Below, piece by piece: positions 5,101-44,421 of a stretch of DNA of 64,000 nt (its first letter is position 1; every line of letters begins with the position of its first letter). Under the pieces are notes generated by a model, which saw only the letters and a program-made list of their open reading frames with translations, made no database searches and had not been told where the DNA came from. The position numbers and the translations under genes are program-made. Origin of the DNA: Candidatus Nomurabacteria bacterium (GTDB taxonomy: Bacteria; Patescibacteriota; Patescibacteriia; HK-STAS-PATE-3); NCBI GenBank assembly GCA_023898465.1, contig CP060223.1:544001-608000 (forward strand), given 5' to 3'.

Positions 5101-5129
5101 AATATAGCACATTAGCAAAAATATGTCAA
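5101..5129 (-). promoter_or_regulatory. Sigma-70-type promoter for the sigma-r4/HARE-HTH operon: TTGACA-N17-TATATT on the minus strand.
   Basis: Revcomp of 5124-5129 is TTGACA. Revcomp of 5101-5106 is TATATT. Spacer 17 nt. Confidence 0.6.
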
Positions 5130-20494: not shown

Positions 20495-20665
20495 GACTCT
20501 TGTACTCCATTGCTTGGCTGTGTGGCCATCCTTGGTTTCTCGGGCGCCAAAAACGCCCTCCTGTTGCAAACGGAGATACTACGCGAGTCTCTCTATTTTG
20601 TCAACCATGCACCGAACCTGGTACGGAGTGAGTCCCACACCAAACTTGGTGTGGGGTCAACCACT

Positions 20666-36897: not shown

Positions 36898-38268
36898 TTA
36901 TGACCTCAGCCACTCTCTCCCCTGTCGTACGAGCAGCTCTTCTGCTTCCTCGGGGTCCTGGAGAAGCTCACGTACCACGCGCTCAAGTCGCACTGATTGC
37001 GAACCCTTCACCAATACGATGTCATGCAGACCTACTACCGAGCGGAGAAAAACCACTGCAGCTTTTGCGTCGGGAAACTCGTGCACTTCCTCCTCAGGAA
37101 AACCTGCTTCACGTGCTGCAGCTGCGATCTTGGCACCCAGCTTGCCAACGGTCACGAGAATATCGGCATGTCCTTTTACCGTCTTTCCAATTTCAGCATG
37201 TGCGTCATCAGTGTATTCCCCCAGCTCAGCCATATCACCTAACACCACAATACGGCGGAAAAAAGTAGCGGATTCAATGGTCTCAGATTTTTTTAATGGT
37301 CCAGTTGTAAGGTGATGTCGCAAATCCTTGGACAAATCACTGATCAACTGAAGTGCCGCAGTCACTGCACGTGGCGAGGCATTATATGAATCATCAATCA
37401 GGAGAGAACGCTTCTGACCTTTGAGTAAACGAGTGCGGCCACGTGGCGGGACGAAATGACGAAAGGCCTCAGCGATGTCGCGCAGATCCATACCATAGGC
37501 AAGTGCCACGCATGTTGCAGCTAGGGCGCTGGAAATAATTGCCTGCCCTACACTTCCTCGCAGCTCCAATGTTGCACTCTTATCCTCAAAATGTACTACG
37601 CAGCGCATGCCCTCGATGCTGGGAAACGCTTCAAATGATTCCTGCTTCCCATACAAGAAACCTACCTCGGTTGCCTGAACGTCAGCTTCTGCGTGAATGC
37701 CATAGCTCAGCACCCGCGACTTGGTCAGTTTATGAAATTCTAAGACTCGCTCATCATCTGCATTGAGAATGGTGTAGCCATCATCTTCTGTGCTTTTTGC
37801 CAGGACCGACTTTTCCTCTGCTACCTTCTCAACTGATCCAAAAAATTCCGTGTGCACTGGAGCAACTGCGGTGACAACACTTACCCGTGGTCGCGCAATG
37901 CTACAGAGATAGCTAATATCGCCCGGATGATCAGCGCCCATTTCTAGTATCAAGACTTCAGGGAAAGGACGACGTTGCAAAAGTAGCTTTGTCGCTTTGA
38001 TAAAAATTCCTAGCCAGGCAAAAGGGTTCCGACCGCCGCTCTTCGCGTCAATAATCGCCAGAGGTAAGCCAAGCTCGTTATTCAAGTTACCCTGACTCCG
38101 TCGCACCGCAAAAGCCCCGCTCATGACAGTGAAAATTGCTTCTTTGGTACTGGTTTTTCCAACGCTGCCCGTAATCGCCACCACATCGGGTTGATACTTA
38201 GCTAGGATTTTCCGTGCATACCAGGCTAGGATGCGCTGCACATACTGCTGGAGCTTTGAGATAGACAT
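36898..38268 (-). CDS. murF: UDP-N-acetylmuramoyl-tripeptide--D-alanyl-D-alanine ligase MurF.
   Basis: Mur ligase P-loop ITGSVGKTSTKE, DDSYNASP motif, C-terminal domain. Confidence 0.85.
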   Translation of the reverse strand: MSISKLQQYVQRILAWYARKILAKYQPDVVAITGSVGKTSTKEAIFTVMSGAFAVRRSQGNLNNELGLPLAIIDAKSGGRNPFAWLGIFIKATKLLLQRRPFPEVLILEMGADHPGDISYLCSIARPRVSVVTAVAPVHTEFFGSVEKVAEEKSVLAKSTEDDGYTILNADDERVLEFHKLTKSRVLSYGIHAEADVQATEVGFLYGKQESFEAFPSIEGMRCVVHFEDKSATLELRGSVGQAIISSALAATCVALAYGMDLRDIAEAFRHFVPPRGRTRLLKGQKRSLLIDDSYNASPRAVTAALQLISDLSKDLRHHLTTGPLKKSETIESATFFRRIVVLGDMAELGEYTDDAHAEIGKTVKGHADILVTVGKLGAKIAAAAREAGFPEEEVHEFPDAKAAVVFLRSVVGLHDIVLVKGSQSVRLERVVRELLQDPEEAEELLVRQGREWLRS

Positions 38269-38388
38269 ATAGAGTAGTATAGCATTATCACCCTAGCGAT
38301 AAATGCACATCTTGACAATTCTCAGGAAAATATATAGTATACGGCCGAAAACCAAAAAAAGAATACGCTCTCTTCTACTCCCCCGGCG

Positions 38389-38430
38389 GGCCTCCAGACT
38401 ACTTCTCTGGAGGCCCCCTTTCTTTATTCT
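38389..38430 (+). terminator. Plus-oriented stem-loop GGCCTCCAGA-N7-TCTGGAGGCC followed by CCCTTTCTTTATTCTTT. Terminator-like, transcript unknown.
   Basis: 10-bp perfect stem at 38389-38415 and a T-rich tail, read directly. Confidence 0.35.
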
Positions 38431-38453
38431 TTACTAAAAAGACTTTGCATGGT

Positions 38454-38670
38454 TTGACAGTAAAAAAGTGAAAGGTATAAGCTGACAACGGAAACGGCCC
38501 GGACGTGTGGAGATGCTTCAAGATAGGGGTCGTAGTCCATGCCCAAAAATCGCACATTCGCATGGAGGAGGGGTAGAGGGTAATTCAGAAGCCGTCCGGG
38601 CACTTTGCCGGATCGTGAACCCTCCAGTCGGAGCCTCGGAATCGGTGTGCGTGATTGCCGGGGCTTTTTT
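38454..38670 (+). ncRNA. Candidate sRNA A: TTGACA-N16-TATAAG promoter, about 180-nt GC-rich structured body, GCCGGGGC plus TTTTTT terminator.
   Basis: Promoter at 38454-38481. Long-range pairing GCCCGGACG/CGTCCGGGC and CCATGC/GCATGG. T6 at 38665-38670. The overlapping ORFs 38424..38798 and 38507..38740 look non-protein-like. Confidence 0.3.
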
Positions 38671-38671
38671 A

Positions 38672-38878
38672 TTGACAAAAAATTTCCATTTGTTACTATG
38701 GCTGCATCGCACCTTCCCGCTCCTTTTTTCAACTTCCTAGCAGCTGATTCAGCTGCATTCGCGTTCGCTCTACGGACTTCCCCTTTCTCTGTTCTCACTG
38801 CTCCCTCCTGTCTTCCGTGTTCTGGCTTCGCGTCTCGTTCTCCCAGCCAGGTGCAACATTGTACCTGGCTTTCTTTTT
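38672..38878 (+). ncRNA. Candidate sRNA B: TTGACA-N16-TACTAT promoter, about 170-nt C/U-rich body, GCCAGGT-N10-ACCTGGC plus TTTCTTTTT terminator.
   Basis: Promoter at 38672-38699 and terminator at 38846-38878. Internal GCAGCTG-att-CAGCTGC hairpin. CU-rich tracts (CCTTCCCGCTCC, CTCCCTCCTGTCTTCC). Confidence 0.3.
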
Positions 38879-39410
38879 AAAAATCTACAGCAGCCAAATA
38901 TCTCGCTGTATTCACATTTCGTACAGTCATGTACTTATACAGCTTTGACCCAATCACTTTACTCAACTGACTTTTATTCAGGTTCTCTTTTTTTACGTGC
39001 CAGACAATCGCACCTTTTATATAACGCAAGTCCATATACTCTTTTTTCATTGGTAACTCATCAAGAGTTTTCTTATCATCAACTTCAGGGAAAAGGAAAG
39101 CTACATCGGTCTTTTGTGTCTGATGATCGTTCTGCCAAGTCTGAGGAATTGCTGCCACGATTTTCTTCACCTCAGCTTGTGTCTTGATTAACACGGGGAT
39201 AGGAAAGCCAAATTCATTTACTAGGGCTTTTGTCAGCGCTGACTGAATATCCTTACTCTTCCCTTTTGCATTAAAAAGAATGTTGCCAGAATTTATGTAA
39301 GTTGAAACATCCGTGTAACCCAAACTCCCACACAACTCCTTGAGTCGCTTCATTTCTACTTTGTTATTCCCGCCAACATTAATGCCGCGGAGGAGGGCTA
39401 TGTATCTCAT
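38877..39410 (-). CDS. DUF1697 family protein.
   Basis: MRYIALLRGINVGGNNKVEMKRLKELCGSLGYTDVSTYINSGNILF is a canonical DUF1697 N-terminus. AT-richer than the flanks. Confidence 0.8.
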   Translation of the reverse strand: MRYIALLRGINVGGNNKVEMKRLKELCGSLGYTDVSTYINSGNILFNAKGKSKDIQSALTKALVNEFGFPIPVLIKTQAEVKKIVAAIPQTWQNDHQTQKTDVAFLFPEVDDKKTLDELPMKKEYMDLRYIKGAIVWHVKKENLNKSQLSKVIGSKLYKYMTVRNVNTARYLAAVDF

Positions 39411-39973
39411 TGATTGATCACCAAAAACTTCTGCTCAGGAATTTTAAGAATTTCGCACGGCTCTCCAAAACTCTCAAGACCTTCAAGCTTATCTTGTTTG
39501 TCTTCCGACCAATGGACAAACACTTTCACATTTAAGATCCCCAAACCTTGGTGAAATTTCTGACTATCAACATGATAAAAATATCGCGATAACATTTGCG
39601 CCCCAGCGGATGATCCTGCTACTGTTTTTCCCTGCCACAACTCTACCAGCATAGGCACCTTCCGCATATGTTCCAAAAGTACTAATGTCTCACCGCCAAT
39701 AGTATAAATTGCATCAGCGTTCTTAATCTGCTCAATAAAAGTCTGTGTATTCTCGGACGCCATAACAAAGTGTATAGATTTCTCCAGAGCAACTACAGAA
39801 AATCGTTCTTTGGTTAAATCAAAAAATTCTTTCCAGAGGCTTTTATCACGTGCAAAGGGAATAAACAACACAGTAGGCTCGCTCGGTACATCCTTTAAAA
39901 TTTCCTGCACGTAAGCTCGATTATCTACAGTATCATATTTTAGCGCACCACCGTGCAGTATATATTTTGTCAT
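39407..39973 (-). CDS. Peptidase S51 (peptidase E / cyanophycinase-like, class-I glutamine-amidotransferase-like) family protein.
   Basis: GKTVAGSSAGAQML is a GxSAG nucleophile elbow in the expected position. 4-bp overlap with the DUF1697 gene. Confidence 0.6.
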   Translation of the reverse strand: MTKYILHGGALKYDTVDNRAYVQEILKDVPSEPTVLFIPFARDKSLWKEFFDLTKERFSVVALEKSIHFVMASENTQTFIEQIKNADAIYTIGGETLVLLEHMRKVPMLVELWQGKTVAGSSAGAQMLSRYFYHVDSQKFHQGLGILNVKVFVHWSEDKQDKLEGLESFGEPCEILKIPEQKFLVINQ

Positions 39974-39993
39974 ACGTTAAACCTTTTCGACAT

Positions 39994-40512
39994 TTATTTT
40001 CTCCCGACATTCTCATCCATGTCTTTGCCTCCAATAAAAGACAAAACATCAAAATCAGGATCAAGCAACTTTACTAAATCAAGGTCAGGACGATTCATTA
40101 TTTCCACGCCTGGCATTTTTTCACCTCTAGACAACGCCTTTTTTAGTTCTTCAAATTCCTCTTTATCCAAGACAAAATCAACATCGCCCACCTCGGTGTG
40201 CTGATCTGGTTTACGAATATAGAGATAGGTATAGGTGGTCTCCGGAATATCACCTTGGGCAGGAATAACAATGGGCTCATGGAGACGATAATATTTTTGA
40301 TTCCAATTATCAGATTCTTTTGTCAGCTCCTGGCGAACTTTTGTGAGATAGCTATACTCGTCATCGTCATGGCAAAATATTCCGAGATTACCTGCCACTG
40401 GTAAATATCTGCCAAAATTTTTTTTACATAACTCAAAACACTTAAGGTGAGTATATGTTATCGCTTGTATCAATTGCTCTTTGTCTTGGATTGGACTAAA
40501 TCGATACTGCAT
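39994..40512 (-). CDS. Hypothetical protein.
   Basis: Intact ORF, AT-richer composition. No motif recognised. Confidence 0.5.
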   Translation of the reverse strand: MQYRFSPIQDKEQLIQAITYTHLKCFELCKKNFGRYLPVAGNLGIFCHDDDEYSYLTKVRQELTKESDNWNQKYYRLHEPIVIPAQGDIPETTYTYLYIRKPDQHTEVGDVDFVLDKEEFEELKKALSRGEKMPGVEIMNRPDLDLVKLLDPDFDVLSFIGGKDMDENVGRK

Positions 40513-40578
40513 GATTTCTGCTATAGAACTTCCTTTACAATACGCAGCTGAAGATGGCCATCTTCAGCTGCGGTTGAG

Positions 40579-42336
40579 TTACTCCCCAACTACACTCGGC
40601 GGAACTTCGAAGTAATTCAAGAGGAACTTCGCAATATCGCCGAATAAAGGCGCAGCAGTGCTCTCGGCAAATTTCACGTCCTTAGGATCCACAATCTTGG
40701 TCACCATGACAAACTTCGGGTCCTCGACCGGACCGAAACCGGCGAAGGAGCCAATGGTGCGATTAGGATCATAGCCCGGACCGTCAGTGCGTGGAATCTG
40801 CGCCGTACCTGTTTTACCGGCAATGTAATATCCTGGCACAGCCGCTCTCGTACCGTGACCATTCTTCACTACATTTACGAGCATGGCTGATACTGTGGTT
40901 GAGGTTTTTGGATCCAACACTTGTCGTACAGCTGTGGGGTGAGTTTTCACATGGAAGTCATTTGGCTTCACAATTTCATCAACGATGTATGGTTTATACA
41001 AAGTTCCCCCATTTGCAATAGCTGCATAGGCCGCGGCCAGCTGCAAAGGCGTGGCGGTGATACCTTGACCAAAAGAAGCGGTGTCAACGTAAATGTCACG
41101 TCCGCTGGCCAGCTCTCCGAGATTACCAGCCGACTCATTACCAAGCTCAACACCAGTCTGCTCACCAAAACCAAAGCGCTTCACATAGTCATAAAAAACG
41201 TCGTTCCCGGCCTGTTGCGCAGCAAAAATTGCTCCGGTGTTTAGAGATTTTTCCAACACCTCGGTCATTGTTTGCGTACCGTATGTTTTATCGTCGGAAT
41301 TCCGAATCGTGAAGCCGCCAACCTCTACACTTCCTTCATCAACATAAGTGGTTTCCGGTGTAACCTTGCCAGTATCAACCGCGGTCGCCATGGTAATGGG
41401 CTTGAAAATCGATCCAGGCTCATAAGGACTAATGGCCGGATTAAGAAAAACATCCAAGTCAGTCACCTCGTTGTAATGATTCGGATCAAAGTCAGGATAA
41501 CCGCACATGGCCAATATGGCACCGCTATCTGGATCAAGTATAACCACCGCCCCACTCTCAGCCCCGTGCTTCAGTACGGCTTCTTGAAGCTTCGTGCACA
41601 CAGTGTATTCCAGGGTACGGTCAATGGTAAGGATGAGATCATCACCATCTTTAGCATCTTGGATAAATCGATCGCCGACGGTAATCCAACGACCGGCCGC
41701 GTCGCGCTCAGCTTGCAAATAACCCTGTTGACCAGCCAGCTCTTCATCAAAATAACCTTCCAGTCCATACTGTCCTTTTTTCACATCCTCTGACATGCCA
41801 AGGAAACCAAGGATTTGGCTGGCCAGACTTCCCTCTGGATAAAGGCGTCCCTTTTCACTAATGAAAGAGATGCCATCAATCTCTAATGCCTCAATTTTTT
41901 CTTTGGTAGCAACGCTTATATTATGCTCAATCGGTTCATAGACATCGTCGCTTTTTGATAATCGAGCAAGTAATGTTTCTTTATCAAGCGTGATGAAACT
42001 TTCAAGCTTTTCGGTCACATCCTCCGGATCTTCAATTCGCTTTGGCACAGCATATACTAGGAAGCGTTCCTCATTGGTAGCCAGTGGAAAAAGCTGCCCA
42101 TCTGAATAGCGATCGTGCGCGTAAATTTCTCCACGATCTGGTAAAAGCCGTTGCTCAATTTCGTGCTGACCAGAGGCCAGCGCTTCGTAGAACCCGTGCG
42201 CTAAAACCTGCAGCGTGAATAGACGAACTACTAAAATACTCGAAAAGCCAAATAACAAAATAAGCAGCACGGTGAGACGATCAAGTCGCCATCTTGGCTG
42301 CTGTTGTCGTGGTCGATTGCGTCCGTACCGCGTCAT
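40579..42336 (-). CDS. ftsI: Penicillin-binding protein 2/FtsI (class B PBP, septal transpeptidase).
   Basis: N-terminal TM, dimerisation domain, transpeptidase motifs SIFK (SxxK), SLN (SxN), KTGT (KTG). Confidence 0.85.
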   Translation of the reverse strand: MTRYGRNRPRQQQPRWRLDRLTVLLILLFGFSSILVVRLFTLQVLAHGFYEALASGQHEIEQRLLPDRGEIYAHDRYSDGQLFPLATNEERFLVYAVPKRIEDPEDVTEKLESFITLDKETLLARLSKSDDVYEPIEHNISVATKEKIEALEIDGISFISEKGRLYPEGSLASQILGFLGMSEDVKKGQYGLEGYFDEELAGQQGYLQAERDAAGRWITVGDRFIQDAKDGDDLILTIDRTLEYTVCTKLQEAVLKHGAESGAVVILDPDSGAILAMCGYPDFDPNHYNEVTDLDVFLNPAISPYEPGSIFKPITMATAVDTGKVTPETTYVDEGSVEVGGFTIRNSDDKTYGTQTMTEVLEKSLNTGAIFAAQQAGNDVFYDYVKRFGFGEQTGVELGNESAGNLGELASGRDIYVDTASFGQGITATPLQLAAAYAAIANGGTLYKPYIVDEIVKPNDFHVKTHPTAVRQVLDPKTSTTVSAMLVNVVKNGHGTRAAVPGYYIAGKTGTAQIPRTDGPGYDPNRTIGSFAGFGPVEDPKFVMVTKIVDPKDVKFAESTAAPLFGDIAKFLLNYFEVPPSVVGE

Positions 42337-42348
42337 AGCACCTAGGCT

Positions 42349-42708
42349 TTAACGACGGGCAAAGGCGGAATCGGTCGGACTAAGATATTCAATATGCGCC
42401 ACTTCGGTTAAGCCGAGCTGGCCACTTGCTTCCTGGACTGCACTCAGAGATTGCAGCTCAGTCGCCTCTACTTCCAGGCGACGATTTTCTTTACGCAACT
42501 CATCTACTCGATTTTCCAGCGTCTTGATTTCGAAACCAGTTGTCGCCACATTGTTAATCAACGCTAAATAGGCTCCCCCACCAATCACTGCGAGCGTCAC
42601 CGTTAACACGGTAATTGCAGTGAGGCGCAGCTTCAATGTACGAAGCAGCGTACCTGCTAAGCGTTGAGAAATGGTGCTTTGTTGAGTTGTGCGATCGTAA
42701 TAGGTCAT
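42349..42708 (-). CDS. ftsL: FtsL/DivIC-like cell-division protein (single TM plus coiled coil).
   Basis: TM helix LTAITVLTVTLAVIGGGAYLALI followed by a leucine-zipper-like ENRVDELRKENRRLEVEATELQ. Positioned between rsmH and ftsI. Confidence 0.6.
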   Translation of the reverse strand: MTYYDRTTQQSTISQRLAGTLLRTLKLRLTAITVLTVTLAVIGGGAYLALINNVATTGFEIKTLENRVDELRKENRRLEVEATELQSLSAVQEASGQLGLTEVAHIEYLSPTDSAFARR

Positions 42709-43658
42709 TGGATTTTTTCTGCTACTCGGAGTTTAGCGCTCCTGGAACGTGAATTGTGCGCAATCTCATCCTGACCCGGCACGACTGGTTTCTTGGTCAG
42801 CACCTGCAATGAAGCATGGTGATTGCACGTGCAGACCGGTTGTTGGGCAGGACAGATGCAGTCTGTTGATTCGCGCCGGAAGAAACGCTTCACGATCCTA
42901 TCCTCTAGCGAGTGATAACTGAGGACCGCGATGCGACCGCCGGGTTGAAGCAAGTGAACTACTTCTGGTAAAACGCGCGCGAGGACGTCGAGCTCGTCAT
43001 TGACTTTAATGCGAAGCGCTTGGAAGACTTGCGTCGCAGGGTGAATGCGCGATCGCCCTCGCTTGGGTTTTACCTTATCTATACAGGCGACAAGTTGTGG
43101 AATGTGCGTGAAGGGATTTTTTTGACGCTCGGTAACGATTGCTCGAGCAATGCGACCAGCTGCTGACTCTTCCCCGTACTCTTTGAATATTTTTTTTAGC
43201 TCTTGCTCAGATGCGGTATTGAGGATATCGGCAGCCGTTGCTTGTGCGCTGGTCGGATCAAAGCGGAAATCGAGAGGCGCGGAACTTAGAAAGGAAAATC
43301 TTGATGCGAGAGCTTCGATTGCCAGTGAAGAGAGACCAAGGTCCAATAGAACACCGCGTAGTTGAATATCTGGGAATTGTTCATGGATGCGCTGTGCTGC
43401 GTGAACAAAATTATCATGCAGGAGATGAGTGCGCTGGCTATACTTCTGTAAACGCGCCTTGGCTATATCCAGTGTGACTGGATCCGCCTCTACTCCAATG
43501 AGTATTCCCTTTGGAGCTGTGCGCTCAAGCATTGCTTCAGCGTGCCCTCCCCCACCTAGAGTCAGATCAAGCACCGTATCGCCTGAACCTAGGTTGAGGA
43601 GCGCTAATGTTTCGTTGAGAAGAACAGGAATGTGTCCGCGGCCGGATTGGGCAGGCAT
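42705..43658 (-). CDS. rsmH: 16S rRNA (cytosine1402-N4)-methyltransferase RsmH (MraW).
   Basis: HIPVLLNETLALL...DLTLGGGGHAEAM SAM-binding signature. Upstream ORF residues are an extension artefact. Confidence 0.85.
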   Translation of the reverse strand: MPAQSGRGHIPVLLNETLALLNLGSGDTVLDLTLGGGGHAEAMLERTAPKGILIGVEADPVTLDIAKARLQKYSQRTHLLHDNFVHAAQRIHEQFPDIQLRGVLLDLGLSSLAIEALASRFSFLSSAPLDFRFDPTSAQATAADILNTASEQELKKIFKEYGEESAAGRIARAIVTERQKNPFTHIPQLVACIDKVKPKRGRSRIHPATQVFQALRIKVNDELDVLARVLPEVVHLLQPGGRIAVLSYHSLEDRIVKRFFRRESTDCICPAQQPVCTCNHHASLQVLTKKPVVPGQDEIAHNSRSRSAKLRVAEKIQ

Positions 43659-43659
43659 C

Positions 43660-44103
43660 TTAGACACCGATTTCACCAAGCGCCTCGGCAATATCACCGC
43701 TGGACTTCTCGGTTTTGGTCTTATAAGCGGCCCAAGCAGTTTCATCCCAGAGTTCCAGGCGGTTGTACAAGCCAGCTACCACTACCTTCTTCTTCATAGT
43801 GGCGTACTTGCGCAAGTAATCAGGCAACATGATGCGCCCCTGCTTATCAATCTCCACATCCATGGCCCCAGCCAGCATTAAGCGTGAAAAAGCGCGGGTG
43901 TTTGCTTGAGCAATTGGCAAATTCGCTAACTTGTCAGCTAACTTCTCCCACTCTTGTTGTGGATACAAGAAAAGACAGTTGTCCAAGCCTCGGGTGACGA
44001 CTGCCCCTTTGCTGAGTGCTTCACGGAATTTTCGAGGTACTGCGAGGCGACCTTTTTCATCAATCGCGTGGTAGTACTCTCCGATAAACATGCTGGTGGT
44101 CAT
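43660..44103 (-). CDS. mraZ: Transcriptional regulator MraZ.
   Basis: MFIGEYYHAIDEKGRLAVPRKFRE... with duplicated SpoVT/AbrB-like halves. The start may be 44091. Confidence 0.85.
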   Translation of the reverse strand: MTTSMFIGEYYHAIDEKGRLAVPRKFREALSKGAVVTRGLDNCLFLYPQQEWEKLADKLANLPIAQANTRAFSRLMLAGAMDVEIDKQGRIMLPDYLRKYATMKKKVVVAGLYNRLELWDETAWAAYKTKTEKSSGDIAEALGEIGV

Positions 44104-44159: not shown

Positions 44160-44421
44160 TCTCACCCTTCTTTAACCATTTTACCCCACTTCCTGGTTTT
44201 CGTCAACCACTTTAAAAACCACAAGAATTAGGCGTATTGGTCAAGAAAATGGTGAAATAGCACAATTTCAAGAAATAACGTTACACTTAGGCACTTCCCC
44301 ACTTCGACCTCAGGAAGATGTACGTCAAAAATGACAAACTTGACCTTTTGCTGAGCCTTTGTAAACTGCCGACACTAAGGAATTCTTTGCACTTTCACAA
44401 TCTACTAGGAGGAGAGCGACA

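What the first reader, a model, noticed from the sequence alone, without database searches (positions are those of the whole stretch)
38389..38880. Two tandem promoter-plus-terminator small RNAs in the 600-bp gap before murF, antisense to the dcw direction
Each of sRNA-A (38454-38670) and sRNA-B (38672-38878) has a consensus-like TTGACA -35, a plausible -10, 170-180 nt of body and a stem plus U-run terminator. An additional plus-oriented terminator-like hairpin lies at 38389-38430. A is GC-rich with long-range pairing. B is C/U-rich (anti-SD-like tracts) with a perfect GCAGCTG/CAGCTGC hairpin. They lie between murF and the AT-rich insertion, on the opposite strand to every flanking gene. This may be a regulatory RNA pair, possibly controlling dcw or cell-wall genes, or a 6S-like RNA.
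Basis: seen in the sequence. Interest (0 to 1): 0.6.

Follow-up and report, generated by a model that had tools for sequence, protein, structure and literature searches.

The report
Three tandem orphan small-RNA genes beside murF
The 608-base gap before murF in this Nomurabacteria (candidate phyla radiation) genome most likely holds three back-to-back small non-coding RNA genes of no known family, at a position where related genomes also carry small RNA genes, but their function is unknown.

Summary
The gap 38269-38876 is non-coding and carries three, not two, promoter-plus-terminator units, all on the + strand. They are U0 (about 38347-38430), A (about 38488-38670) and B (about 38706-38878). 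The "extra hairpin" at 38388-38416 is the terminator of U0, which has its own TTGACA-17-TAGTAT promoter.

The ORFs in the gap have decoy-like codon usage, no Pfam match and no homologue among 1.84 billion proteins. Rfam finds nothing, so a 6S assignment has no support.

Relatives with 50-56% MurF identity keep the same layout. A TTGACA-type promoter points away from a leaderless murF, followed by one to three structured, terminator-ended RNA units between ftsI and murF. Sister lineages have ftsI and murF adjacent or overlapping.

In one subclade three such RNA families (X, Y, Z) are at least as conserved as murF DNA and show compensatory base-pair changes.

The window's own units have no detectable homologue. 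A does not fold better than shuffled sequence, and 73 nt beside DUF1697 in the nearest relative do not align to B.

Best reading: real, lineage-specific small RNAs. Function is unknown, and regulation of dcw or cell-wall genes is untested.

The parts
38276..38284 (-). murF promoter with an extended -10 (TGcTATACT). The A of the murF ATG (38268) lies 8 nt after the -10, so the murF mRNA is probably leaderless.
   Evidence: Sequence. The same TGnTATACT-type element sits just upstream of murF in L003, L004, L086 and L093; the shared 8-mer TAGTATAC (the complement of this element) is reported.
38312..38340 (+). Promoter P0: TTGACA, 17 nt, TAGTAT. It points away from murF.
   Evidence: Scores 10 of 12. 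A TTGACA or TTGACC promoter lies on the strand opposite murF, about 40-110 nt upstream of murF, in L002, L003, L004, L086, L088 and L093.
38347..38430 (+). Unit U0: an RNA of about 80 nt. It has an unstructured A- and C/U-rich 5' part (…CGCUCUCUUCUACUCCCCC) and a terminator.
   Evidence: Fold (z = -4.2). Composition.
38388..38430 (+). Terminator T0: a perfect 11-bp stem with 8 G-C pairs (GGGCCTCCAGA / TCTGGAGGCCC) and the tail CCTTTCTTTATTC.
   Evidence: It is unique in the window.
38454..38481 (+). Promoter PA: TTGACA, 16 nt, TATAAG. The -10 lacks the final T.
   Evidence: The stock scan did not report it because of the G at position 6.
38488..38670 (+). Unit A: a G-rich RNA of about 183 nt (57% G+C). 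It has a candidate long-range helix at 38492-38505 with 38593-38606. A hairpin loop displays AUCGCACAUUC (38549-38559), and a GGAGGAGGGG tract follows.
   Evidence: The overall fold is not better than shuffles.
38630..38670 (+). Terminator TA: a bulged stem of about 15 bp followed by UUUUUU.
38672..38699 (+). Promoter PB: TTGACA, 16 nt, TGtTACTAT (extended -10). It begins 1 nt after TA's U-run.
   Evidence: 10 of 12, TG present. In L093 the Z promoter abuts the Y terminator in the same way.
38706..38878 (+). Unit B: an RNA of about 173 nt, 73% pyrimidine. The predicted 5' end is AUCGCACCUUC. It contains a perfect hairpin at 38740-38756. An unpaired C/U-rich stretch at 38757-38844 carries four or five UCCC/CUCC motifs.
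38845..38878 (+). Terminator TB: an 11-12 bp stem with one G·U pair, followed by UUCUUUUU. Its U-tract overlaps the stop codon of the convergent DUF1697 gene (38877-38879).
40544..40571 (.). Perfect palindrome just 3' of the ftsI (PBP) stop codon. It shares the stem GCAGCTGA/TCAGCTGC with the hairpin inside B, and the two copies bracket the AT-rich three-gene block.
   Evidence: exactly two copies in 64 kb, none expected. L002 has a similar hairpin 3' of its PBP gene.

Best explanation
The gap holds three independently transcribed small non-coding RNA genes, U0, A and B. Each is driven by a sigma-70-type promoter and ended by an intrinsic terminator, and each is transcribed away from a leaderless murF.

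They are the local version of an RNA-gene array that characterises this Nomurabacteria clade. In the clade, one to three structured small RNAs sit between ftsI and murF, where other Patescibacteria have the two genes adjacent.

**Shown:**
- the promoter and terminator signals and their order;
- the absence of coding potential;
- the same position and orientation of RNA units in relatives;
- structural conservation of the relatives' families Y and Z.

**Inferred:**
- that the window's three units are expressed;
- that they act in trans.

My preferred mechanism is held with low confidence, roughly 0.2 on its own. In it, U0 and B act as base-pairing regulators through their unpaired C/U-rich tracts (UCCC/CUCC), which can mask purine-rich, Shine-Dalgarno-like sequences. 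This is how the C-rich-motif sRNAs of Firmicutes work. A would be a more structured RNA that displays the shared motif AUCGCACAUUC in a loop. The same motif forms the predicted 5' end of B and of family Y in a relative.
For: - **Signals.** Three of 17 strong promoter-like sites (16 distinct positions) and two of about 10 distinct strong terminators in 128 kb of scanned strand fall in this 608-nt gap. All are on the + strand and in alternating order.
- **Strand.** U-tracts occur only on the + strand. TB contains a G·U pair. B folds better on the + strand.
- **Non-coding.** Gap ORFs score -0.13 to -0.56 per codon, against +0.07 to +0.34 for real genes. There is no Pfam match, no tblastn or tblastx similarity, and 0 hits for the 124-aa ORF in 1.84 billion proteins.
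- **Synteny.** The order mraZ-mraW-ftsL-ftsI-[gap of 0.5-1.1 kb]-murF-asparaginase is kept in relatives with 50-56% MurF identity. More distant Patescibacteria have gaps from overlap to about 220 nt. A sister clade has the two genes overlapping or 197 nt apart in AT-rich sequence.
- **Relatives' RNAs.**
  - A promoter pointing away from murF is followed by a structured, terminator-ended RNA in L002 (z = -4.2), L003 (z = -6.4), L086 (z = -3.2) and L088 unit 2 (z = -6.8).
  - L093 has three tandem units, X, Y and Z, and L088 has Y and Z.
  - Y is 86-88% and Z 80-82% identical where murF DNA is 80% identical.
  - Y has 56 predicted pairs and Z has 65. None is broken, and 2 and 5 pairs respectively show compensatory double changes.
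- **Shared motif.** The exact 11-mer ATCGCACMTTC occurs twice in the window, both times in the gap on the + strand. One copy is in a loop of A and the other is the predicted 5' end of B. In 94 loci it occurs once more, apart from L092, which is the window's own sequence. That copy is at the predicted start of Y in L093.
Against: - No expression data exist.
- The window's units have no detectable homologue. nhmmer, blastn and Smith-Waterman tests are negative. Covariance models of X, Y and Z find nothing in the window.
- A's fold is no better than shuffles, and its -10 is TATAAG.
- In the nearest relative with data (L094; DUF1697 DNA 84% and PBP 80% identical), the 73 nt next to DUF1697 do not align significantly to B (p = 0.08). 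That relative lacks TB's hairpin and U-run.
- Within one species, L093 lacks 39 nt of X that L004 has, so such units can tolerate damage.
- Many genes in the window lack a Shine-Dalgarno sequence, which weakens an anti-SD role.
- The target scan shows no outlier.
- A-B and U0-A duplexes are not better than shuffles.
Confidence: 0.6

Rival explanations
1. The units act in cis as an insulator or antisense module. Convergent transcription from PB, PA and P0 runs against read-through from ftsI and the inserted genes. This blocks the read-through, or marks it for double-strand cleavage, and so uncouples murF from the upstream dcw genes. murF then runs from its own leaderless promoter. In this view the RNA products matter little.
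For: - In sister lineages ftsI and murF overlap or are adjacent.
- The array always sits exactly between the two genes and always on the opposite strand.
- No - strand terminator protects murF. The gap's hairpins lack U-tracts on the - strand.
- murF has its own conserved promoter in every clade member.
- RNA bodies differ completely between the window, L002, L003 and the X/Y/Z subclade.
Against: - X, Y and Z are as conserved as murF DNA and keep their pairs through compensatory changes. Pure interference would not require this.
- Three strong terminators and G+C-rich structured bodies are not needed for collision.
- One - strand terminator would do the job.
Confidence: 0.15
2. The gap is non-functional intergenic debris. 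It would consist of insertion scars and remnants of older RNA genes or terminators, left around an island-insertion hotspot. The promoter-like and terminator-like sequences would have no selected RNA product in this genome.
For: - The locus is a variable spot. The window has three AT-rich genes here and L002 has a 310-aa gene on the opposite strand. L003 and L088 have a small ORF, L005 has a Y1 transposase with REP-like repeats, and L094 has DUF1697 only.
- The hairpin inside B duplicates the hairpin 3' of ftsI.
- The nearest relative shows no significant similarity next to DUF1697.
- A's fold is not significant.
Against: - Three near-consensus promoters, each correctly paired with a + strand terminator, are unlikely to persist by accident in a 1.08-Mb reduced genome.
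- The same architecture recurs in every clade member examined, and Y and Z show signs of structural constraint.
Confidence: 0.17
3. One unit, most likely A, is a very divergent housekeeping RNA such as 6S RNA that the Rfam models miss.
For: - Its length is about 180 nt.
- It has its own strong -35.
- It is G+C-rich relative to the genome.
- Rfam models are poorly trained on candidate phyla radiation bacteria (my own knowledge).
Against: - No Rfam match better than E of about 5 in 800 nt, and none to 6S.
- The 5' and 3' ends do not pair into a rod with a central bubble.
- No homologue is found in relatives, where a housekeeping RNA should be detectable.
- Relatives' units also give no Rfam match.
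Confidence: 0.04
4. The gap encodes a protein or is a decayed gene. The main candidate is the - strand 124-aa ORF at 38424-38798, which has an AGGAGG sequence 5 nt before its GTG start.
For: - The Shine-Dalgarno-like sequence lies at the right spacing.
- A gene caller called this ORF on a Logan contig (L092 2021-2188).
- The - strand is purine-rich, as coding strands here are.
Against: - Its codon score is -0.13, in the decoy range.
- It has no Pfam match and 0 hits among 1.84 billion representative proteins.
- It gives no tblastx match to any relative.
- The ORF runs through a promoter and two terminators.
Confidence: 0.03

Closest known systems
C-rich-motif base-pairing sRNAs of Firmicutes (RsaE/RoxS and other Rsa sRNAs)
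   Same: B and U0 are short, stand-alone, terminator-ended RNAs. They carry several unpaired UCCC/CUCC tracts that could pair with purine-rich ribosome-binding sites.
   Different: There is no sequence or covariance-model similarity to any Rfam family. B is far more pyrimidine-rich and has more motifs. Many genes here lack Shine-Dalgarno sequences. No target stands out.
6S RNA (Rfam RF00013 and relatives)
   Same: A has a similar length and its own promoter, and it is G+C-rich.
   Different: There is no Rfam hit, no end-to-end rod with a central bubble, and no conservation.
Tandem sRNA gene clusters such as PrrF1/PrrF2 or the Qrr genes (my own knowledge)
   Same: Several promoter-plus-terminator sRNA genes lie head to tail in one intergenic region.
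   Different: The known tandem sRNAs are paralogues of each other. U0, A and B are unrelated in sequence apart from an 11-nt motif shared by A and B.
The X/Y/Z RNA array next to murF in related Nomurabacteria-like genomes
   Same: - Same position between ftsI and murF.
- Same orientation.
- Same promoter-plus-terminator units abutting one another.
- Up to three units.
- B and Y share the predicted 5' end AUCGCAC(A/C)UUC.
   Different: Covariance models and alignments detect no homology. At 60-62% murF DNA identity this is expected whether or not the units are orthologous.

Membership tests
6S RNA | A match to the Rfam 6S covariance models | tested here: not met
   No hit at gathering score in the window. 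No 6S hit at E up to 10 in 38200-39000.
6S RNA | A rod-like fold closed by the 5' and 3' ends, with a large central bubble | tested here: not met
   The minimum-energy and centroid folds of A are three hairpins plus a terminator. The best long-range helix encloses only 87 nt and leaves a 3' tail of about 65 nt.
6S RNA | Binds the RNA polymerase holoenzyme and templates product RNAs | not testable with these tools
   This needs biochemistry.
C-rich-motif sRNAs (RsaE/RoxS type) | A sequence and structure match to the Rfam family | tested here: not met
C-rich-motif sRNAs (RsaE/RoxS type) | Several unpaired C-rich motifs in a terminator-ended sRNA | tested here: met
   B has UUCCCG, UUCCCCU, CUCCCUCC and UCUCCCA, all unpaired in the minimum-energy fold. 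U0 has CUCCCCC.
C-rich-motif sRNAs (RsaE/RoxS type) | Pairs with the Shine-Dalgarno regions of specific mRNAs | tested here: inconclusive
   The duplex scan against 64 start regions shows no outlier. The glmS start region ranks first for B's 5' part and second for U0, but only by about 0.4 kcal/mol.
Stand-alone bacterial sRNA gene (generic) | Own promoter and own intrinsic terminator, on a strand without a downstream gene | tested here: met
   The next gene downstream is convergent.
Stand-alone bacterial sRNA gene (generic) | A discrete transcript is detected | not testable with these tools
   No transcriptome data are available here.
Stand-alone bacterial sRNA gene (generic) | No coding potential | tested here: met
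murF-divergent RNA array of the clade (families X, Y, Z; defined here) | Position between ftsI and murF, on the strand opposite murF, behind a TTGACA promoter back to back with the murF promoter | tested here: met
murF-divergent RNA array of the clade (families X, Y, Z; defined here) | Sequence and structure homology to X, Y or Z | tested here: not met
   Models R1-R3 give no hit below E of about 0.5, even with filters off on the gap for R1 and R2. Only an 11-nt motif is shared with Y.

The most novel reading that the evidence does not exclude
The ftsI-murF junction of one Nomurabacteria clade has been colonised by an array of previously undescribed structured small RNA genes. These are families X, Y and Z in one subclade and U0, A and B in this genome. 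They would be true orthologues that have diverged beyond recognition. They would regulate cell-envelope synthesis in trans, for example glmS or dcw mRNAs, through a shared AUCGCACNUUC element and C-rich seeds. If so, this would be an early example of an sRNA regulatory module in candidate phyla radiation bacteria.
Probability: 0.12. Interest if true: 0.6.

Novelty: new member of a known kind. Interest (0 to 1): 0.38.

Why it matters
Small-RNA biology in candidate phyla radiation bacteria appears little explored: two full-text paper searches found nothing on 6S RNA or comparable sRNA loci in these bacteria, and Rfam recognises nothing at this locus in any of the genomes examined.

A conserved site where a reduced genome keeps up to three structured, strongly promoted and terminated RNAs would give concrete candidates for metatranscriptome mapping and for new RNA families. 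Y and Z already have two-sequence covariation support. The site is notable because it splits the otherwise tightly coupled ftsI-murF pair.

For the window itself the claim is modest. These are probable orphan sRNAs without a demonstrated function.

Tried and rejected
- **Rfam.** Gathering thresholds on the window and on four loci, and permissive E-value searches on the gap, on L003 and on L093, gave only noise.
- **tRNA and tmRNA.** None in the window or the four loci scanned (L002-L005).
- **Pseudogene or protein.**
  - Codon scoring, Pfam at E up to 10, and tblastn and tblastx against relatives were all negative.
  - So was phmmer of the 124-aa ORF against 1.84 billion proteins.
- **Paralogues or dispersed repeats.** nhmmer and pattern searches find none in the window, so these are not REP- or MITE-like copies.
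- **Homology to relatives' RNAs.**
  - nhmmer, blastn, k-mer sharing and Smith-Waterman with shuffles found nothing.
  - Three covariance models found nothing.
  - Only promoter elements, T-runs and one 11-mer are shared.
- **A-B, U0-A and U0-B duplexes.** Not better than shuffles.
- **Target prediction on 64 start regions.** No outlier.
- **Phage, plasmid and viral-contig searches.** No match.
- **Contig breaks.**
  - I first read the many assembly contigs that end inside this gap as a sign of population variability.
  - L001 ends at 38423 and L092 starts at 38630, both at hairpins. L092 is 100% identical to the window.
  - The breaks are therefore better explained by palindromes in the assembly graph.
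- **Wasted scan.** It returned only relatives at 30-43% identity, useful only as an outgroup.
- **Literature.** Two full-text searches found nothing on 6S or comparable sRNA loci in these bacteria.
Full report
**Setting.** The window comes from a 1.08-Mb contig of a Candidatus Nomurabacteria metagenome-assembled genome (Patescibacteria). Its Mur ligase is 100% identical to a protein named that way. On the - strand the genes around the finding run in this order:
- mraZ (43660-44103)
- mraW (42705-43745)
- an FtsL-like gene (42349-42708)
- ftsI/PBP (40579-42336)
- a block of three genes with lower G+C: a 172-aa orphan, an S51 peptidase and DUF1697 (38877-40512)
- the gap 38269-38876
- the Mur ligase annotated as MurF (36898-38268)
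- asparaginase

glmS (44422-46323) is transcribed away from mraZ.

**Checking the observation.** The hairpin at 38388-38416 has its own promoter, TTGACA-17-TAGTAT at 38312-38340, scoring 10 of 12. The gap therefore holds three promoter-terminator units:
- U0, about 80 nt
- A, about 183 nt
- B, about 173 nt

My scan of the whole window found 17 promoter-like sites (16 distinct positions) scoring at least 10 of 12 on both strands. Three are in this 608-nt gap, all on the + strand. From the same scan I count about ten distinct strong terminator hairpins. Two are in the gap on the + strand, and A's bulged terminator is a third. The elements alternate promoter, terminator, promoter, terminator, promoter, terminator. 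PB starts one base after TA's U-run.

The weak points are:
- A's -10 is TATAAG, which lacks the conserved final T.
- A does not fold better than shuffled sequence (z = -0.69, -0.45).
- U0 (z about -4 to -5) and B (z about -4) do fold better, largely because of their terminators. B without its terminator gives z = -1.8.

The + strand is favoured. The U-tracts exist only there, and TB contains a G·U pair. B's z-score is -4.4 on the + strand against -1.3 on the - strand.

**Is it coding or a pseudogene?** No.
- The six ORFs in the gap score -0.13 to -0.56 bits per codon on a codon model trained on 36 genes of the window. Real genes score +0.07 to +0.34 and decoy ORFs -0.31 to +0.07.
- None has a meaningful Pfam match at E up to 10; the only listing is a chance-level Ric8 hit (E = 0.15, 11.6 bits against a cutoff of 25.7) for the 44-aa ORF.
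- tblastn with neighbouring proteins of relatives, and tblastx of the gap against 85 loci, give only noise.
- The longest ORF is 124 aa on the - strand, with an AGGAGG sequence 5 nt before its GTG. It has no hit among 1.84 billion representative proteins.

**Known RNA families.** Rfam gives no hit at gathering thresholds in the whole window. It gives only chance-level hits (E of at least 4.8) in 38200-39000. There is no tRNA or tmRNA. A does not have the end-to-end rod and central bubble of 6S RNA. The '6S-like' suggestion has no support.

**Relatives.** The closest MurF homologues are only 50-56% identical. Their contigs keep the order mraZ-mraW-ftsL-ftsI-gap-murF-asparaginase. The non-coding gap is 0.5-1.1 kb (L002, L003, L088), or the contig ends inside it (L004, L086, L087).

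More distant genomes lack the long gap:
- In about 60 more distant Patescibacteria the ftsI-murF spacing ranges from overlap to about 220 nt.
- In a sister clade at 42-45% identity the two genes overlap, or are separated by 197 nt of AT-rich sequence with no TTGACA hexamer.

The long gap is therefore specific to this clade.

In each clade member with the region assembled except L005 (which has a Y1 transposase there), a TTGACA or TTGACC promoter on the strand opposite murF lies about 40-110 nt upstream of murF's start. It is mostly followed, after 17 nt, by a good -10:
- L003: TAGACT
- L002: TATTAT
- L088: TACTAT
- L004, L086 and L093: a weak -10

murF itself has a conserved TGnTATACT-type promoter so close to its ATG that the mRNA must be leaderless or nearly so.

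Behind the promoter that points away from murF come G+C-rich RNAs ending in intrinsic terminators. Their fold z-scores are -6.4 (L003), -4.2 (L002), -3.2 (L086) and -6.8 (L088 unit 2).

A JGI contig found by DNA pattern (L093) shows three such units in tandem. I call them X, Y and Z. The Z promoter abuts the Y terminator, the same arrangement as A and B in the window. L088 has Y and Z. L086 and L004 have X.

Conservation of these families:
- Y is 86-88% identical and Z 80-82% identical between L088 and L093, where murF DNA is 80% identical.
- X is about 76-83% column identity (blastn 78%) where murF DNA is about 78%.
- The consensus folds keep all 56 predicted pairs in Y and all 65 in Z. Two pairs in Y and five in Z show double compensatory changes.

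With only two sequences each this is suggestive, not proof.

None of X, Y or Z matches Rfam.

One caution applies. L093 lacks 39 nt of X that L004 has, although the two are the same species by 99.4% murF DNA identity. The deletion removes one strand of X's closing helix.

**Are the window's units homologous to these?** Not detectably.
- nhmmer, blastn, shared k-mers and Smith-Waterman scores against shuffles are all negative.
- Covariance models of X, Y and Z find their own members at E of 1e-47 or better. They find nothing in the window, L002 or L003, even with filters off on the gap for X and Y.

At 60-62% murF DNA identity, non-coding homology would be invisible anyway. This result neither supports nor excludes orthology.

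One lead remains. The exact 11-mer ATCGCACMTTC occurs twice in the 64-kb window, where about 0.06 copies are expected. Both copies are in the gap on the + strand. One is in a hairpin loop of A (38549-38559). The other is the predicted first bases of B (38706-38716). Among 94 fetched loci it occurs only once more, apart from L092, which is the window's own sequence. That copy is at the predicted first bases of Y in L093.

**History of the locus.** A perfect palindrome with the stem GCAGCTGA/TCAGCTGC occurs exactly twice in the window. One copy is inside B (38740-38756). The other lies just 3' of the ftsI stop codon (40544-40571). Together they bracket the AT-rich three-gene block. L002 has a similar hairpin 3' of its ftsI gene.

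DUF1697 is 60-66% identical to proteins of Leptospira and other phyla. That is closer than MurF is to anything else, which suggests horizontal acquisition.

A closer relative, L094, has DUF1697 DNA 84% identical and ftsI DNA 80% identical. In it DUF1697 lies directly after ftsI, without the other two genes. The 73 nt beyond DUF1697 do not align significantly to B (p = 0.08) and lack TB. B, or at least its 3' part, may therefore be young or weakly constrained.

**Function.** Nothing computed here assigns one.
- Duplex predictions among the three RNAs are no better than shuffles.
- Pairing of the C/U-rich parts of U0 and B with 64 translation-start regions shows no outlier. The glmS start region (…ACUAGGAGGAGAGCGACAAUG) ranks first for B's 5' part and second for U0.
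- Many genes here have no Shine-Dalgarno sequence and appear leaderless.

I rank the explanations as follows, based on the promoter and terminator quality, the recurrence of the architecture and the constraint seen on Y and Z.

| Explanation | Confidence |
|---|---|
| Real, independently transcribed small non-coding RNAs | about 0.6 |
| Debris at an insertion hotspot | 0.17 |
| Cis-acting insulator by convergent transcription | 0.15 |
| Divergent housekeeping RNA such as 6S | 0.04 |
| Protein-coding gene or pseudogene | 0.03 |

Within the first explanation, the specific mechanism of C-rich seed pairing by U0 and B stands at about 0.2 on its own.

**Verdict.**
The units are probably sRNA genes, not 6S and not a demonstrable pair, and a dcw link is untested.
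- The units are orphan members of a known kind of element.
- Interest is moderate. It comes mainly from the clade-wide RNA array at the ftsI-murF junction and from the unannotated families X, Y and Z found in relatives.

Noticed in passing
window 38740-38756 and 40544-40571: Two perfect palindromes share the stem GCAGCTGA/TCAGCTGC. They are the only two in 64 kb, with none expected by chance. They bracket the AT-rich block of three genes (172-aa orphan, S51 peptidase, DUF1697; G+C 0.40 against about 0.47 for the window). This looks like a duplicated hairpin left by an insertion.
   Followed up: partly
window 38877-40512; L094 1-1130: DUF1697 is 60-66% identical to Leptospira and other non-Patescibacteria proteins. 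That is closer than MurF is to any relative, so the gene was probably acquired horizontally. A relative (L094, DUF1697 protein 85% identical) has DUF1697 directly after ftsI, without the S51 peptidase and the 172-aa gene.
   Followed up: partly
window 38268-38284; also 5101-5129 and 20576-20604: murF and at least two other genes have a consensus promoter ending 6-13 nt before the start codon. Many genes lack a Shine-Dalgarno sequence. This organism appears to use leaderless mRNAs widely.
   Followed up: partly
L093 1189-2191; L088 414-1008; L086 140-385; L004 1-180: Three unannotated structured RNA families (X, Y, Z) lie in tandem next to murF in related genomes. Each has its own promoter and terminator and no Rfam match. 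Y and Z are conserved at 80-88% and show compensatory pair changes.
   Followed up: yes
L093 about 1293 versus L004: L093 lacks 39 nt of RNA X that L004 has, although the two have 99.4% identical murF DNA. The missing piece is the 3' strand of X's closing helix. This is either a within-species polymorphism or an assembly artefact.
   Followed up: no
L003 5481 onward; L088 137-328; L093 about 2290-2368: A small ORF of about 63 aa (MEQWHTFRAT… / MEEYRFFEGE…) with a strong Shine-Dalgarno sequence lies just 3' of ftsI on the murF strand. It converges on the RNA array. It has no Pfam match and is absent from the window.
   Followed up: partly
L005 2-782: In one relative a Y1 (IS200/RAYT-like) transposase sits directly upstream of murF. 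It is followed by REP-like repeats (GGCGCAyTCTTyAGATTGCGCC).
   Followed up: no
window 44380-44425 (glmS leader): glmS has one of the strongest Shine-Dalgarno regions in the window (AGGAGGAGAGCG). U0's CGCUCUCUUCU can pair with it over 11 bp, two of them G·U. B's 5' part also ranks it first. Neither margin is significant.
   Followed up: partly
window 38423 and 38630: Independent Logan contigs of this organism end exactly at the terminator hairpins (L001 at 38423, L092 at 38630). Several relatives' contigs also end inside the gap. Palindromes breaking the assembly graph probably explain this, rather than biology.
   Followed up: partly
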